DNA of 32,000 bases from contig BA000021.3 in assembly GCA_000008885.1 (NCBI GenBank), positions 450,001 through 482,000 on the forward strand, written 5' to 3'. The stretch is from Wigglesworthia glossinidia endosymbiont of Glossina brevipalpis. Lineage in GTDB: Bacteria; Pseudomonadota; Gammaproteobacteria; Enterobacterales; Enterobacteriaceae. The notes beneath the pieces were generated by a model, which saw only the letters and a list, made by a program, of their open reading frames with translations, had not been told where the DNA came from and ran no database searches. A program made the translations under genes and the position numbers. Of the stretch, positions 3,030-23,227 are shown piece by piece; within the stretch, counting starts at the first letter, position 1, and each line of letters begins with the position of its first letter.

Positions 3030-3754
3030 CTAATTAATTAACGTACCTATATCTTTTCCTATTATTGCTTTATATAAAGAATTAGGCTCTTTTATATTAA
3101 ATATTCTAATTGGTAATTTATGTTCTTTAGCTATAGCAAATGCAGTAAAATCCATTATTTTTAAATTTTTTTTCAATGCATAATCATAACTTATTTTTTT
3201 ATATAAAGTTGCGTTTGGATTTTTAGCAGGATCTTCAGAAAAAACACCATCAACATTAGTAATTTTTAATAATAAATTTGCATCAATTTCTATTGCCTTC
3301 AAACATGCTGCTGAATCTGTAGTAAACAAAGTATGTCCAATTCCAAAACAAAAAATTACTATTTTTTTTTTAAAATTTTATTTATTCTAAAAATATTATA
3401 AGATTCACATATTCCATTTATATTAAATGGAAATGGTGATATTAATTGCGATTTAATATTTAAACGTTCAAAATGATTATAAATAAACAATCCATTTATT
3501 AATGTAGACATCATTCCTATATGATCTCCTATATTTCTTTTAATTCCATGTATTTTTAACTGACTTCCTCTAAATAGATTTCCTCCTCCAATTACTATTC
3601 CTATTTGTATACCTAGATTAAATAAATTTTTTATTTCATTTGTTATTTTGTTTAAAATATCAAAATCAACTAAATTTTTTTTTCCTTTTTTTAAACATTC
3701 TCCGCTTAATTTTAATAAAATTTTTTTATTAATATATATTTTATTATTTTTCAT
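3030..3754 (-). pseudogene. pyrH: UMP kinase, reading frame broken by a 1-nt frameshift in a coding-strand A10 run; possibly still expressed via slippage
   Basis: Two ORFs cover the N-terminal part (3359..3775: ILLKLSGE, GGGNLFRG) and the C-terminal part (3030..3329: [26 protein letters not shown]) of PyrH. The frames meet at T10 on the plus strand (3362..3371). One extra A restores [20 protein letters not shown] and gives a 241-aa product. The likely true start is the ATG at 3754, preceded by GGAGA with a 5-nt spacer, rather than 3775. Confidence 0.85.
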
Positions 3755-3792
3755 ATTTTCTCCACAGACAGGCATATTCTTTTATAAGAATT

Positions 3793-9939: not shown

Positions 9940-10012
9940 GCCCGAATAGCTCAGTTGGAAGAGCATAGGACTGAAAATCCTTGTGTCGGTGGTTCGATTC
10001 CACCTTCGGGCA
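9940..10012 (+). tRNA. tRNA-Phe (anticodon GAA)
   Basis: 73-nt cloverleaf. Acceptor GCCCGAA pairs with TTCGGGC, with discriminator A. D arm GCTC/GAGC. Anticodon loop is CTGAAAA. T arm GGTGG-TTCGATT-CCACC. CCA is not encoded. Close to E. coli tRNA-Phe. Confidence 0.95.
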
Positions 10013-10615
10013 AAATTAAAAATAATTATTGTTGTTATTAAATTAAAATAATAAATTTAATTTATTTATTTAAAAATAAATAACATAATCAATATATTTC
10101 ATTTCATTAGTTTCATTTAAAATTTTACTTAATAATATTTTATTTTTTTATTATAAAGTGTATTAAAAATATTACATTTTTAATTTTAATAAAAATATTT
10201 TTATTAATAATTTTATAAAATTTAAATTAATATATTTTTATTTTATTACAAACTCATTCTAATATTAATAATATTATATGTATTTCTTTATAATTCTATT
10301 TTATATTTTTTGTAGTAATTTTTAATTTTAAAAATCTAATATTTAAAGTTATTTAAAAAAAAAAGACAAATATACTTCTCTTTTAACGAAAGATATTAAT
10401 TAATATATAATATAATTATTTTGTTTAAACTAAAAATTTATATTAATTAAATTAAAATATAAAAATGAAATAGAATTATATATTAAATTTTAATTTTTAT
10501 AAAAATTAAACAAATCTTATGTAACAATATTAATTGATACAAATTAAAATATTTTATTTATTTTTTAATAAAAATAATTAAAAAAAGCATAAATTATCTA
10601 GGAGAAGTAGTGTTT

Positions 10616-13526: not shown

Positions 13527-15016
13527 TTATTTATTTTTTTTCCAATATATCAATAAAGCTCTACAATTTAATTTTATTTTTCCTAAATAAGAAACAAAAA
13601 CTCCTAATGCAGAAATGAAATTTTTGTTATAAAACAGCAAAGGAGTTCTTTTCCTTTCCCAAGGAGGAACAGAAAATTCTTTGAATAATTTTTTAATTGT
13701 TTTTCTTTTAGAAAATTTATTAACTCTAATTAAGTCAGTAAAATATTTAAATCTAAATGATAAATCATCATTTTTATTAGGCATATTAACTATAGTTATA
13801 GATATTTTTTTTTCTAACAAATAAATAATATCCATAGTTTTACTGTAAAACTCATCTTTTTCATATAATTTAAATTTATTAAAAAAATAAATTTTTTTTT
13901 ATTGTTGTAATAAAAAAAATTTATTTTTTTAATAAAATTTTCATTAATCATAATAGGCTTTGTAATTAAAGTTCCTAAATCATATGGTAAAACAATTTTT
14001 TTAGAATGATTCAAAGATGTTTTAAAAATTATATTTTTTAGATGATTTTTTGAATAAATAGGGATAAAATATAAATTTTTTTTAAACCTTTTAATTATAT
14101 TGTTATTTATTTTTATTTCTGCTTTAGAATCTTTTTTACTAATTATAACATTTTTCCAAATATGTTTTAATTGGCTTAAAGATGGCATTTTAAAATTATT
14201 TAAACAAAACCATTTTCTTAAAATAGCAAATCTTTTTATCTCACTCATTTTAAATAGTTCAATAAATTTAAGAGATTTATCTTTTTCAACTAAACTATTT
14301 AAAGTATCTTTTAAAAGTTCATTTAATAATTTTTCTTGATCAAAACACAATTTTGCACTTCTAGATATAGTATTTCCTATGTTAGGCCAACGTTTTTTTA
14401 ACAAAGGAATTATCTCAGATCGTAAGAAATTTCTATCAAATTTAATATTTAAATTACTTTTATCATCTATCCAATTTAAATTATGTTTAATAGCATATAA
14501 TTTGATATCCTCTTTTTTACAATGTAAAAGCGGCCTTTTTATTATATGAGAATCAAACTTTTTAATTGATTGCATCCCAGAAATCCCTCTAGGCCCACTT
14601 CCTCTTTTTAAAGATAATAATATAGTTTCTATTTGATCATCTTGATGATGTGCCGTAATAAGAACTTCTTCAGGATTTAAATCAGAAAATAAAGCTTTAT
14701 ACCTTTCTCTCCTTGCAGAAGATTCTATCCCTTCAGAAAAATCAGAAATAAAAATATTAATAGATTTAAAAAAAACTTTATATTTTAAACATTGATCATG
14801 ACAATGATTAGACCAATACTTAGATTCTTTGCAAATATTATGATTTATATAAACAGCTCTAAATTTAAAAATTTTTTTAAAAAAATTATTGTTGTTCTTA
14901 ATTTTTTTTATATATAATGATATCATATGTAATAAAACAGTAGAATCTAATCCTCCACTAAAAGCCAACACATAAGATTTTTTATATGAAATCTCTTTAA
15001 AAAATTTTTTTAACAT
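13527..15016 (-). pseudogene. tilS: tRNA(Ile)-lysidine synthase, reading frame broken by a 1-nt frameshift (candidate site is a coding-strand A9 run); possibly still expressed via slippage
   Basis: The 400-aa ORF (13814..15016) carries the PP-loop SGGLDS, HHQDDQIET, LKRGSG and DRNFLR motifs. The 102-aa ORF (13527..13835), in another frame, carries the TilS C-terminal domain (KKLFKEFSVPPWERKRTPLLFYNKNFISALGVFV). Both frames are open only between about 13817 and 13898. T9 on the plus strand at 13892..13900 is the obvious slip site. Confidence 0.85.
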
Positions 15017-15744: not shown

Positions 15745-16202
15745 TTTTTACCAGAGTGACCAAATCCCATATCTTTTCTATTAGTAATTTTAACAAATTT
15801 ATTTACTATATTCCATTCAATTTGAATTAATGGAACAAAAATTATTTGTGCTATTCTATCTCCTATTGATATTAAAAAGTTCTTATTACTTCTATTTAGC
15901 ATAGATATCATAATAGGACCTTGATAGTCTGAATCAATCAATCCAATTGTATTGCTTAGTATTATTCCATATTTATGAGACAACCCCGATCTTGGTAAAA
16001 TTAAACCAGAAATTTTCTGATCTGAAATATCTATAGATACTCCAGTAGAAATTAATACAGTTTCATTAGGATTTAAATTTATTTCTTTATCAATGCATGC
16101 TCTAAGATCCATTCCTGAAGAACCATCAGTGAAATATTTTGGTAAAAAAAATTCTTTACCAAATCTTTTGTCTAAAATTCTTATATTAACTTTTTTTTTC
16201 AT
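15741..16202 (-). CDS. dut: dUTP diphosphatase
   Basis: The ORF track starts at 16238. The ATG at 16202 (MKKKVNIRILDKRFGKEF) aligns with E. coli MMKKIDVKILDPRVGKEF. Motifs SGMDLRA, PRSGL, GLIDSDYQG and GFGHSG. Lies downstream of coaBC, as in E. coli. Confidence 0.93.
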   Translation of the reverse strand: MKKKVNIRILDKRFGKEFFLPKYFTDGSSGMDLRACIDKEINLNPNETVLISTGVSIDISDQKISGLILPRSGLSHKYGIILSNTIGLIDSDYQGPIMISMLNRSNKNFLISIGDRIAQIIFVPLIQIEWNIVNKFVKITNRKDMGFGHSGKN

Positions 16203-17400
16203 AAAAAATAATAATTTGATGTAATAATTTTTTTGCAAGAGATAACTTGTTATTTATAGACAACATCATACTTCCTGTTTTCCAAAATAAATGAAGAGCG
16301 TTATAGTTGCTATTAAATCCTTGATTTGGTTTTGACACATCATTAGCACAAATCAGATCTATATTCTTTTTTATCCTTTTTTCTTTAGCATATTTTCCTA
16401 TCTTTTCCGTATCAGCAGAAAAACCCACTATATATGGCCTATTCTTTTTTAAAGAAGCTACTTCGGATATAATATCAGGATTTTTTACTAATTTTAAGCA
16501 TAATTTGTTATTTTTTTGTTTTTTAATTTTCTTTCTAGATATTTTTTCTAATCTATAATCAGTAATTGCTGCACAACAAATAAAAATATCTTGATTTTTT
16601 ACTAACGACATTACTGCATCTTTCATTTCTATTGCACTTTTTATATTGATTTTTTTAAAAATTCCATCTGGAGTAGATATTTTAACTGGGCCAGATATTA
16701 ATGTAACTTGATATCCTACATCTATTGCAGCTTTAACTATAGCAAATCCCATTTTCCCTGAACTATAATTACTAATAAATCTAACTGGATCTATTAATTC
16801 TATAGTTGGTCCTGCTGTAACCATGATTTTTAAATTTTTAACATTATTAAAACCTGATTTAAAATAATTTGTTATAAGTTTAACTAATTTACTTATTTTA
16901 ATCATTCTCCCAAAGCCTTTGTCTCCACATATTTGATTTCCATAATCTGGACCCCAAAATATAACACCTCTATTATTTAGTTTTTTTAAGTTATCCTGAG
17001 TAGACGGTGCTAAATACATATTTTTATTCATCACTGGAGATATAGCTATAGGAGACGATGTTGCTAAACAAATAGCGCTTAATAAATCATTAGTAATTCC
17101 AGAAGATAATTTTGCTAATAAATTTGCAGTTGCTGGAGCTAAAACTATTATATCTGGCCATTTAGAAATTTTAATATGATCAATCATTTTGTTATATAAA
17201 AAATCAGAATCAATAAATACTTGATGTCCAGATATTATTTTTAAACTCAAAGGGGTAACGAACGCTTGTGCAGATTTAGTCATAACAACACGTACTATTG
17301 CTCCTTTTTTTTTCAGTTGTTGTATTAACTCTAATGACTTATACGCAGCAATGCTTCCGCTAATCCCTAAAAGAATATTTTTATTAAATAGTTCTTTCAT
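16186..17400 (-). CDS. coaBC: bifunctional phosphopantothenoylcysteine decarboxylase / phosphopantothenate-cysteine ligase
   Basis: 404-aa ORF (E. coli Dfp about 406 aa). Motifs GISGSIAAYK, LAPATANLLAKL, ITAGPT.E.IDPVR.ISN.SSGKMGFA and LICANDVS. Its stop overlaps the dut start by 17 nt. Confidence 0.93.
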   Translation of the reverse strand: MKELFNKNILLGISGSIAAYKSLELIQQLKKKGAIVRVVMTKSAQAFVTPLSLKIISGHQVFIDSDFLYNKMIDHIKISKWPDIIVLAPATANLLAKLSSGITNDLLSAICLATSSPIAISPVMNKNMYLAPSTQDNLKKLNNRGVIFWGPDYGNQICGDKGFGRMIKISKLVKLITNYFKSGFNNVKNLKIMVTAGPTIELIDPVRFISNYSSGKMGFAIVKAAIDVGYQVTLISGPVKISTPDGIFKKINIKSAIEMKDAVMSLVKNQDIFICCAAITDYRLEKISRKKIKKQKNNKLCLKLVKNPDIISEVASLKKNRPYIVGFSADTEKIGKYAKEKRIKKNIDLICANDVSKPNQGFNSNYNALHLFWKTGSMMLSINNKLSLAKKLLHQIIIFYEKKS

Positions 17401-23154: not shown

Positions 23155-23227
23155 TGGGTCGTGCAGGATTCGAACCTGCGACCAATTGATTAAAAGTCAA
23201 CTGCTCTACCTACTGAGCTAACGACCC
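23155..23227 (-). tRNA. tRNA-Lys (anticodon UUU)
   Basis: The reverse complement is GGGTCGTTAGCTCAGTAGGTAGAGCAGTTGACTTTTAATCAATTGGTCGCAGGTTCGAATCCTGCACGACCCA, nearly identical to E. coli tRNA-Lys. Anticodon loop is CTTTTAA. CCA is not encoded. It lies just after cpoB, like lysT in E. coli. Confidence 0.95.

What the first reader, a model, noticed from the sequence alone, without database searches (positions are those of the whole stretch)
13814..13901. Essential tilS is also split, with an A9 run at the edge of the only interval where both frames are open; again +1 A repairs it
The 400-aa PP-loop ORF ends ..YYNNKKK FIFLINLNYMKKMSFTVKLWILFIC-TAG at 13814. The conserved TilS C-terminal domain (..FSVPPWERKRTPLLFYNKNFISALGVFV) lies in a different frame, open from 13898 downward.

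On the coding strand the text is AAT AAA AAA AAA TTT (T9 at 13892..13900 on the plus strand). With ten A it becomes AAT AAA AAA AAA ATT TAT TTT TTT AAT AAA.. and runs uninterrupted through IYFFNKFKLYEKDEFYSKTMDIIY.. to the native stop at 13527.

The direction of the defect, one A short, is the same as in pyrH. Lysidine synthase is needed to read AUA as Ile, and ATA is plainly a heavily used codon in this window, so loss should be severe.

The repaired product would be about 496 aa, against about 432 aa in E. coli. The excess is roughly 50-60 residues of N/K/F/Y-rich insertion between ..LPYDLGTLIT.. and ..LSFRFKY... The exact slip site within 13817..13898 is therefore not certain.
Basis: partly seen in the sequence, partly recalled or inferred. 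Interest (0 to 1): 0.65.

Follow-up and report, generated by a model that had tools for sequence, protein, structure and literature searches.

The report
Frameshifted tilS at a poly(A) run
In this tsetse-symbiont-like genome, the essential gene for reading the AUA codon is broken by one missing A in a run of nine; everything else about the gene looks healthy, so it is probably rescued by polymerase or ribosome slippage, as known in related insect symbionts, unless the missing A is a sequencing error.

Summary
On the minus strand, a 400-aa ORF (13814..15016) carries the TilS PP-loop and substrate-binding domains. The TilS C-terminal domain lies in the -1 frame, open from 13898 to the stop at 13527. 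An A9 run (13892..13900) sits at the start of the only 82-nt interval where a frame switch gives an open product. One extra A yields a 496-aa protein.

That protein aligns without gaps across the junction to three intact Wigglesworthia TilS proteins. It keeps every family-invariant residue. It scores higher against the TilS profile than its intact relatives do. It folds confidently, except for a loop that begins right at the junction. The 50-60-aa "excess" is a lineage-wide linker insertion, not decay.

Relatives have only A6-A7 at this spot and are in frame, so the defect is specific to this lineage. pyrH in the same window has the same defect at an A10 run.

The best reading is a real 1-nt contraction of a poly(A) tract in a gene that still works. 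Full-length protein would come from RNA polymerase slippage, possibly with -1 ribosomal slippage on A_AAA_AAA. This is documented in Buchnera and Blochmannia. A sequencing error could not be excluded, because no independent assembly was found. It is a new member of a known kind and of modest interest.

The parts
13814..15016 (-). tilS 5' ORF: 400 aa, with the PP-loop ATPase domain (SGGLDS at residues 20-25), the CTD1 substrate-binding domain, the first part of the lineage-specific linker, and a 27-codon out-of-frame tail ending at TAG 13814..13816
   Evidence: Pfam PF01171 6e-49 and PF09179 5e-8; NCBIfam TilS profile positions 7-346
13892..13900 (-). A9 run on the coding strand (AAT AAA AAA AAA TTT). 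This is the proposed slip site. In frame it also forms the -1 slippery heptamer A_AAA_AAA. A10 would restore the frame.
   Evidence: the highest-scoring junctions are 373-375
13817..13898 (-). The only interval in which a switch from the ORF1 frame to the -1 frame gives an uninterrupted product
   Evidence: junction scan; translations
13527..13898 (-). tilS 3' part in the -1 frame: 123 codons plus the stop. It holds the rest of the linker and CTD2 (TilS_C) with an intact PxxxRxxxP motif (P451..R455..P459 of the repaired protein).
   Evidence: PF11734 8e-16; TIGR02433 42.3 bits against a cut-off of 20.2; invariant residues kept
13881..13887 (-). T7 run on the coding strand. It is an alternative, shorter slip site that would also restore the frame with one extra T.
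   Evidence: junction k=378 scores 601.3, against 601.8 at the A9 run
13833..13835 (-). The only ATG in the 3' frame upstream of CTD2. It lies 19 nt before the ORF1 stop and has no Shine-Dalgarno-like sequence. It would be the start of a 102-aa stand-alone CTD2 under the split-protein rival.
13805..13813 (-). A second A9 run, in frame in the 3' part (TTA GAA AAA AAA ATA), immediately 3' of the ORF1 TAG. The relative L002 has an in-frame A9 at the homologous place.

Best explanation
This is a genuine single-base contraction (A10 to A9) of a poly(A) tract inside a tilS gene that still works, in a Wigglesworthia-type tsetse endosymbiont.

The DNA encodes a truncated 400-aa product. A fraction of mRNAs gains one extra A when RNA polymerase slips backward on the A9/T9 hybrid. 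Ribosomes slipping -1 on A_AAA_AAA may add to this and would give the same peptide. Those messages are translated into a 496-aa type I TilS: PP-loop domain, CTD1, a 64-aa linker, and CTD2. That enzyme makes lysidine on tRNA-Ile2 so that AUA, the most used Ile codon here, is read as Ile.

Shown here: the anatomy, the intactness of both halves, the restriction to this lineage, and the position of the break in a tolerant loop.

Inferred from work on Buchnera and Blochmannia: the slippage itself, and that the genomic run is truly A9.
For: 1. One extra A gives a product colinear and gap-free across the junction with three intact Wigglesworthia TilS.

2. All family-invariant positions in the 3' part are kept (F423, W453, R455 and P459 in 72 sequences; 14 positions). 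These include the CTD2 PxxxRxxxP motif that PMC11947777 shows to be critical.

3. There is no excess divergence of the 3' part. The distance ratio, window-P0002 over P0002-P0004, is 1.27 for the 5' part and 1.34 for CTD2. The repaired product scores 419 bits on the TilS profile, against 399 and 389 for intact relatives.

4. The AlphaFold model has pLDDT 88.9 and pTM 0.81. Its only segment below 50 is residues 374-386, directly after the A9-encoded lysines 371-373, so junction variants should be tolerated.

5. The homology score is maximal for junctions inside the A9 run.

6. The association with a run is unlikely by chance, about 0.07. It recurs at pyrH with an A10 run, and both genes need one extra A. 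They are the only 2 split genes among about 32 in the window.

7. Literature:
- Single-nucleotide insertions dominate transcription errors in A/T runs of Buchnera and rise exponentially with run length (PMC5574713).
- Runs of 9 A/T suffice for slippage, and 12-50% of transcripts are corrected in Buchnera and Blochmannia frameshifted genes (PMC5009743).
- Essential genes such as dnaX, dnaG and pth are frameshifted in homopolymers in Blochmannia vafer (PMC3017870).
- Rio et al. invoke the same idea for Wigglesworthia morsitans pseudogenes (PMC3280448).

8. ATA makes up 50% of Ile codons, 66 per 1000 codons, so lysidine or an equivalent is needed.
Against: - There is no read-level or independent-assembly confirmation that the genome has A9 rather than A10.
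- No transcript or protein data exist for this organism.
- Baranov et al. 2005 inferred from run statistics that slippage may not operate in W. glossinidia (PMC1088944).
- Traverse and Ochman saw no frame-restoring event in their Buchnera data.
- The frameshift is not conserved in other Wigglesworthia species, which have A7 or A6 and are in frame. So there is no evidence that selection maintains it, and it could simply be very recent.
- No stimulatory RNA structure (z = -1.27) or Shine-Dalgarno-like element supports efficient ribosomal frameshifting.
- The second A9, 89 nt downstream, would again scramble part of the corrected messages.
Confidence: 0.5

Rival explanations
1. Sequencing or assembly artefact: the real genome has A10 (and A11 in pyrH), and tilS is an ordinary intact gene.
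For: - Both halves are perfectly intact, with no sign of decay.
- Both defects in the window are the same kind of homopolymer under-call.
- The apparent source is a single early-2000s assembly (a 697,724-bp contig; Rio et al. table).
- No second assembly was found.
Against: - Real frameshifts of exactly this kind have been verified in sister endosymbionts (PMC3017870, PMC5009743).
- 17 other sense-strand A9/A10 runs in the window are in frame, so there is no general tendency to under-call.
- Homopolymers of 9-10 are normally resolved by Sanger reads (general knowledge, not tested).
Confidence: 0.2
2. The truncated or split enzyme suffices. Either the 400-aa product works as a type II-like TilS without CTD2, or CTD2 is made separately from ATG 13835 by termination-reinitiation and acts in trans. 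No slippage is needed.
For: - The break lies in a low-confidence loop of the linker between CTD1 and CTD2.
- A deltaCTD2 version of a type I TilS keeps weak activity (PMC11947777).
- Natural type II TilS enzymes lack CTD2 (1wy5).
- An ATG lies 19 nt upstream of the ORF1 stop.
Against: - The deltaCTD2 enzyme is dramatically less active and loses acceptor-stem discrimination.
- If CTD2 were dispensable, its 123 codons should be decaying in a 21% GC genome, yet they are open and keep all invariant residues.
- There is no Shine-Dalgarno-like sequence before ATG 13835.
- No trans-acting CTD2 has been reported (0 hits for 'in trans').
- ORF1 carries a 27-residue hydrophobic nonsense tail.
Confidence: 0.12
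3. Genomic heteroplasmy. The polyploid symbiont population carries a mix of A9 and A10 alleles produced by replication slippage. The intact copies supply TilS, and the consensus happened to be called A9.
For: - Poly(A) tracts are hotspots of replication slippage in these genomes (PMC3017870; PMC5574713 discussion).
- No run in the window exceeds 10, which suggests that long runs contract.
Against: There are no data on allele mixtures. The same explanation would be needed for pyrH. In the Blochmannia and Buchnera cases the frameshifts were fixed.
Confidence: 0.08
4. A very recent true pseudogene. tilS has just been inactivated, and AUA is decoded some other way, for example by an unmodified or differently modified tRNA-Ile as in Mycoplasma mobile.
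For: - Some bacteria live without tilS (PMC3575796).
- The frameshift is specific to this lineage.
Against: - ATA is the top Ile codon.
- No second lesion of any kind occurs in 496 codons.
- The profile score is higher than in intact relatives.
- A simultaneous recent loss of essential pyrH would also have to be assumed.
- The rest of the genome could not be searched for a tRNA-Ile(UAU); only 2 tRNAs lie in the window.
Confidence: 0.05

Closest known systems
Poly(A)-tract frameshifted genes of Buchnera aphidicola and Blochmannia, rescued by transcriptional slippage (Tamas et al. 2008; Wernegreen et al. 2010; Williams and Wernegreen 2010)
   Same: - An AT-rich insect endosymbiont of the same enterobacterial radiation.
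- A single 1-nt indel inside a sense-strand A run of about 9-12.
- The gene is otherwise intact and conserved.
- Essential information-processing genes are affected.
- The correction needed is a 1-nt insertion, the commonest slippage product.
   Different: - The slippage was not demonstrated here.
- The run is at the short end of the range (A9).
- The frameshift is not shared with other Wigglesworthia species, whereas several Blochmannia frameshifts are conserved between species.
- As far as I could find, tilS has not been reported as a target.
dnaX-type programmed -1 ribosomal frameshifting (A_AAA_AAG in E. coli) and Thermus thermophilus dnaX A9 transcriptional slippage
   Same: An in-frame slippery A_AAA_AAA heptamer decoded by tRNA-Lys. 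An A9 run is the length used for slippage in Thermus dnaX.
   Different: - There is no upstream Shine-Dalgarno-like or downstream hairpin stimulator.
- The site is not conserved in relatives.
- Here the shifted product is the only functional one, rather than a second isoform.
Type I TilS (E. coli MesJ/TilS 1NI5; Geobacillus kaustophilus 3A2K)
   Same: The same three-domain architecture and motifs: SGGxDS in the PP-loop, CTD1, and CTD2 with PxxxRxxxP. E = 1e-77 to 1NI5.
   Different: - It is encoded in two frames.
- The CTD1-CTD2 linker is 64 aa instead of 13-16 aa, a feature shared with Wigglesworthia, Blochmannia, Westeberhardia and Sodalis-type TilS.
Type II TilS (Aquifex aeolicus 1WY5), which naturally lacks CTD2
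   Same: The 400-aa ORF1 product would resemble it in domain content.
   Different: ORF1 derives from a type I enzyme. It keeps a nonsense tail and is followed by an intact CTD2 coding region.

Membership tests
TilS, tRNA(Ile)-lysidine synthetase, type I | N-terminal PP-loop ATP pyrophosphatase domain with the SGGxDS motif | tested here: met
   SGGLDS at residues 20-25. PF01171 6e-49. TIGR02432 184 bits against a cut-off of 93.6.
TilS, tRNA(Ile)-lysidine synthetase, type I | CTD1, the TilS substrate-binding domain | tested here: met
   PF09179 33.6 bits against a cut-off of 21, residues 253-316.
TilS, tRNA(Ile)-lysidine synthetase, type I | CTD2 (TilS_C) with the PxxxRxxxP helix | tested here: met
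   PF11734 57.6 bits against 22, and TIGR02433 42.3 bits against 20.2. The motif P451-R455-P459 is present. The domain is encoded in the -1 frame.
TilS, tRNA(Ile)-lysidine synthetase, type I | All domains in one uninterrupted reading frame | tested here: not met
   The frame breaks between 13817 and 13898.
TilS, tRNA(Ile)-lysidine synthetase, type I | Passes the NCBIfam equivalog cut-off (NF007942, 606 bits) | tested here: not met
   The repaired product scores 419 bits, and intact Wigglesworthia orthologs score 399 and 389 bits. The cut-off is not reached by any member of this fast-evolving clade, so the test says nothing about decay.
TilS, tRNA(Ile)-lysidine synthetase, type I | Lysidine formation on tRNA-Ile2(CAU) | not testable with these tools
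   This needs biochemistry or tRNA mass spectrometry. The tRNA-Ile2 gene is not in the window.
Endosymbiont genes frameshifted in poly(A) tracts and rescued by transcriptional slippage | A single indel located within a long sense-strand A (or T) homopolymer | tested here: met
   The A9 run lies at the edge of the permitted interval, and the junction score is best there. A T7 alternative is not excluded.
Endosymbiont genes frameshifted in poly(A) tracts and rescued by transcriptional slippage | The gene is otherwise intact, with no accelerated decay | tested here: met
Endosymbiont genes frameshifted in poly(A) tracts and rescued by transcriptional slippage | The frameshift is verified in genomic DNA | not testable with these tools
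   No independent assembly or reads could be found.
Endosymbiont genes frameshifted in poly(A) tracts and rescued by transcriptional slippage | A mixed mRNA pool containing frame-restored transcripts | not testable with these tools
   No transcript data are available.
Endosymbiont genes frameshifted in poly(A) tracts and rescued by transcriptional slippage | The frameshift is conserved across strains or species (the 'maintained by selection' subclass) | tested here: not met
   L001 and L002 (other Wigglesworthia) are in frame with A7 and A6 at the site. P0003 is also intact. No same-species strain was available.
Programmed -1 ribosomal frameshift (dnaX type) | An X_XXY_YYZ slippery heptamer in the zero frame | tested here: met
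   AA[A AAA AAA]TTT in the ORF1 frame.
Programmed -1 ribosomal frameshift (dnaX type) | Stimulatory elements: an upstream Shine-Dalgarno-like sequence and/or a downstream stem-loop or pseudoknot | tested here: not met
   The upstream sequence is pure A/T/C. The downstream 102 nt fold at -13.2 kcal/mol with z = -1.27.
Programmed -1 ribosomal frameshift (dnaX type) | Phylogenetic conservation of the site | tested here: not met
   Relatives are in frame.

The most novel reading that the evidence does not exclude
Wigglesworthia of G. brevipalpis may have become obligately dependent on decoding errors at short poly(A) runs to make at least two essential enzymes, TilS and UMP kinase. The frameshift in tilS would then be kept as a throttle on lysidine supply, and so on translation of the 6.6% of codons that are AUA. 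Alternatively, TilS may work as a two-piece enzyme, with CTD2 supplied in trans by termination-reinitiation.
Probability: 0.07. Interest if true: 0.65.

Novelty: new member of a known kind. Interest (0 to 1): 0.33.

Why it matters
If the A9 run is real, an enzyme that every AUA codon depends on is made only through slippage. AUA accounts for half of all Ile codons here. Translation capacity of this obligate tsetse symbiont would then be tied to the error rate of its RNA polymerase or ribosome.

That would extend the Buchnera and Blochmannia "impaired and rescued" phenomenon to Wigglesworthia. It would also extend it to a tRNA-modification gene and to a run as short as nine. It would contradict an earlier statistical inference that slippage does not operate in this species (PMC1088944).

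On the practical side, tilS and pyrH in this genome should be annotated as frameshifted but probably functional, not as truncated proteins or pseudogenes. If the missing A is a sequencing error, the reference sequence needs two corrections.

Tried and rejected
1. Independent assemblies of the same genome. Exact-product look-ups returned nothing for the two tilS ORFs (the 400-aa P0001 and the 102-aa ORF), pyrE, prlC and frr. A run-length-tolerant DNA pattern found nothing in metagenome contigs. The protein search shows no near-identical 496-aa or second 400-aa copy. The artefact question therefore stays open.

It returned no Wigglesworthia locus and gave nothing for the question.

3. DNA for W. 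morsitans-type P0003 was not on record. Only L001 and L002 could be compared at the nucleotide level.

4. dN/dS on the 3' part was not attempted. Relatives are only about 50% identical in protein, so synonymous sites are saturated. I used relative divergence, invariant residues and profile scores instead.

5. Ribosomal-frameshift stimulators were searched for and not found. The promoter and terminator scan shows nothing special inside the gene.

6. Tamas 2008 and Wernegreen 2010 are not held in the library, and neither are the Rio 2012 supplements. Their results are cited through papers that summarise them. I could not check whether tilS is among the 8 W. brevipalpis pseudogenes counted by Rio et al.

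7. The idea that the N/K/F/Y-rich extra 50-60 aa is degenerate junk was rejected. It is a clade-wide linker of 48-73 aa, partly helical in the model.
Full report
**1. What is in the sequence**

The window is 21.3% G+C. On the minus strand, an ATG-started ORF runs from 15016 to a TAG at 13814..13816 and encodes 400 aa. Its coding strand reads ...TAC AAC AAT AAA AAA AAA TTT ATT TTT TTA ATA AAT... The A9 run is T9 at 13892..13900 on the plus strand.

The -1 frame is closed by a TAA at 13899..13901 and is then open for 123 codons to the TAA at 13527..13529. It reads KKIYFFNKFKLYEKDEFYSKTMDIIYLLEKK...FSVPPWERKRTPLLFYNKNFISALGVFV.... The third frame is full of stops.

Pfam and NCBIfam put the PP-loop domain (residues 15-200), the TilS substrate-binding domain (253-316) and positions 7-346 of the enterobacterial TilS profile in the first ORF. 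TilS_C and profile positions 352-437 fall in the second frame.

I built every possible -1 hybrid. Only switches after ORF1 codons 373 to 400 (window 13898..13817) give an open product.

**2. Is the A9 run more than coincidence?**

The window has 22 A/T runs of 9 or more, and none is longer than 10. Of these, 21 lie in genes and 19 are A runs on the sense strand. Seventeen of those 19 are in frame in intact genes. The other two sit exactly at the two frameshifts of the window.

About 0.07 such runs would be expected to touch an 82-nt interval. The second case is pyrH:
- ORF 3359..3775 matches UMP-kinase profile positions 1-120.
- ORF 3030..3329 matches positions 135-233.
- An A10 run lies at 3362..3371.
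- One extra A gives ...ILKKKIVIFCFGIGHTLFTTDSAACL..., the conserved kinase core.

All other genes that I annotated match their family profiles end to end (apart from sucA, which is cut by the window edge). These are uppS, dxr, frr, tsf, rpsB, map, dapD, aspA, cutA, marC, prlC, pyrE, dut, coaBC, rpmB, gmk, a MarR-like gene, fabB, prmB, cpoB, pal, tolBARQ and sucDCBA.

**3. Source and relatives**

The window's own 400-aa protein sits on a 697,724-bp contig. The closest intact homologues are named Wigglesworthia glossinidia: P0003 (476 aa, on a 719,535-bp contig) and P0004 (495 aa). An unnamed Logan protein, P0002 (495 aa), is also close. All are 47-50% identical and cover 97-100% of the repaired query.

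Rio et al. list W. brevipalpis at 697,742 bp and 22.5% G+C, and W. morsitans at 719,535 bp. I therefore infer that the window is from the G. brevipalpis symbiont.

Synteny is identical in the two relatives whose DNA I could fetch: rpmB, coaBC, dut, pyrE, tilS, prlC, marC.

**4. Is the gene decaying?**

No sign of it.
- The repaired 496-aa product aligns without a gap across the junction to the three Wigglesworthia proteins.
- It keeps every column that is invariant in a 14-sequence alignment and in a 72-sequence alignment. These include F423, W453, R455 and P459 in the second frame.
- P451-x3-R455-x3-P459 is the PxxxRxxxP helix of CTD2, which biochemical work shows to be critical for type I TilS (PMC11947777).
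- The distance ratio, window-P0002 over P0002-P0004, is 1.27 for the part upstream of the run and 1.34 for CTD2.
- The repaired product scores 419 bits on the TilS profile, against 399 and 389 bits for the intact P0002 and P0004.

The "excess" of 50-60 residues is not junk. The stretch between G348 and P413 is 64 aa here and 62-63 aa in other Wigglesworthia. It is 48-73 aa in Blochmannia, Westeberhardia and Sodalis-type proteins, and 13-16 aa in ordinary Enterobacterales.

An AlphaFold2 model built on the 72-sequence alignment is confident, with mean pLDDT 88.9 and pTM 0.81. Its only segment below pLDDT 50 is residues 374-386. That is the loop beginning immediately after the three lysines encoded by the A9 run. 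So the break lies in the most tolerant place of the protein, between CTD1 and CTD2.

**5. Where exactly is the switch?**

Profiles built from the relatives score highest for junctions 373-375, which lie inside the A9 run. The score is almost flat to about codon 387 (13856) and drops by 3-10 bits for later junctions. Homology alone therefore limits the switch to roughly 13856..13898.

Within that span, the A9 run is the longest homopolymer. A T7 at 13881..13887 is the only other candidate.

At the homologous place, the relatives read GAA AAA AAT TTT TTA (A7, L001) and ATA AAA AAT AAA AAT (A6, L002), both in frame. The tract therefore lengthened in this lineage, and the frameshift is specific to it.

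A second A9 (13805..13813) is in frame in the 3' part. L002 has an in-frame A9 at the same spot.

**6. Mechanism**

The downstream frame is the -1 frame. It can be reached in two ways that give the same peptide, NNKKK-IYFFNK...:
- an mRNA with one extra A, or
- a -1 ribosomal slip on A_AAA_AAA.

The precedent for the first is strong in the nearest endosymbiont lineages.
- Frameshifted genes of Buchnera and Blochmannia yield 12-50% corrected transcripts by slippage at long poly(A) runs. Runs of nine A/T suffice for slippage in bacteria (PMC5009743).
- Eight Blochmannia vafer genes, including dnaX, dnaG and pth, carry such frameshifts and are treated as functional (PMC3017870).
- Transcriptome-wide data from Buchnera show that single-nucleotide insertions of the repeated base dominate in A/T runs and rise exponentially with run length (PMC5574713). 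This fits the fact that both tilS and pyrH need an insertion.
- Rio et al. suggested the same for W. morsitans pseudogenes.

For a programmed ribosomal shift, I found no stimulators. Upstream there are no purine-rich Shine-Dalgarno-like bases. The downstream 102 nt fold no better than shuffles, with z = -1.27.

I therefore favour RNA polymerase slippage, with an unstimulated ribosomal contribution possible.

Need for the product is plausible. ATA accounts for 576 of 1144 Ile codons, or 66 per 1000 codons.

**7. What speaks against this, and the rivals**

*Sequencing error.* Nothing I could reach tells whether the genome truly has A9. No second assembly or protein copy exists in the collections. 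A sequencing error explains the perfect state of both halves equally well. I give it about 0.2.

*Doubts about slippage in this species.* Baranov et al. inferred from run statistics that slippage might not operate in W. glossinidia. Traverse and Ochman saw no restoring event in Buchnera.

*Truncated or split enzyme.* The break is at a domain boundary, and a deltaCTD2 type I TilS keeps weak, less specific activity. A truncated or two-piece enzyme is therefore conceivable, with ATG 13835 lying 19 nt before the ORF1 stop. However, a dispensable CTD2 should not remain flawless. There is also no ribosome-binding site before that ATG.

*Other rivals.* Heteroplasmy of A9 and A10 alleles, and a very recent pseudogene, are minor alternatives.

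**8. Comparison and novelty**

The gene is a type I TilS by all domain tests, and it is 1e-77 to E. coli 1NI5. It fails only the single-frame criterion.

As a phenomenon, it matches the poly(A)-tract "impaired and rescued" genes of Buchnera and Blochmannia in anatomy. Two defining features, genomic verification and mixed transcripts, could not be tested. A third, conservation of the frameshift across species, was tested and not met.

It is therefore best filed as a probable new member of a known kind: a new host lineage (W. brevipalpis), a new target gene (tilS), and a run at the short end of the range.

**9. Verdict**

- Best explanation (about 0.5): a real A10-to-A9 contraction in a functional tilS, expressed through slippage.
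- Main rival (about 0.2): a homopolymer miscall.

Interest is modest at 0.33. The case is not surprising to endosymbiont specialists. It is directly testable, and it has some bite because an enzyme needed for 6.6% of all codons would depend on decoding errors.

Noticed in passing
window 3030..3775 (-), A10 at 3362..3371: pyrH (UMP kinase) is split in the same way. The N-terminal ORF ends at a TAG right after an A10 run, and one extra A joins it to the C-terminal ORF (...ILKKKIVIFCFGIGHTLFTTDSAACL...). The restored state would be A11, longer than any run present in the window.
   Followed up: partly
whole window: A/T homopolymers stop at length 10: 17 runs of 9, 5 runs of 10 and none of 11 or more. 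19 of the 21 genic runs of 9 or more are A on the sense strand. This suggests an upper limit set by contraction or selection, and a strong strand asymmetry (Lys AAA codons).
   Followed up: partly
repaired TilS residues 349-412 (window about 13780..13972): The CTD1-CTD2 linker is expanded to 48-73 aa in Wigglesworthia, Blochmannia, Westeberhardia and several Sodalis-type TilS, against 13-16 aa in other Enterobacterales. The model predicts three helices in it. Its function is unknown.
   Followed up: partly
window 13805..13813 and L002 codon 403: A second A9 lies 89 nt downstream of the first, in frame. An in-frame A9 occurs at the homologous position in another Wigglesworthia tilS, so this gene carries recurrent poly(A) hotspots.
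   Followed up: partly
window 16186..16238: The dut and coaBC ORFs overlap around an A9 (16191..16199). The dUTPase profile match starts at residue 15 of the listed TTG-started ORF, so the real dut start is probably the ATG just before the A9 (MKKKVNIR...).
   Followed up: no
window 10355..10364: The only long run (A10) outside a gene lies in the tRNA-Phe to marC spacer. Only two tRNA genes are in the window, Phe-GAA at 9940..10012 and Lys-UUU at 23155..23227.
   Followed up: no
PMC3280448 Table 1, compared: The paper lists the W. brevipalpis chromosome as 697,742 bp, while the contig carrying the window's protein is 697,724 bp. This is probably a digit transposition in the paper.
   Followed up: no
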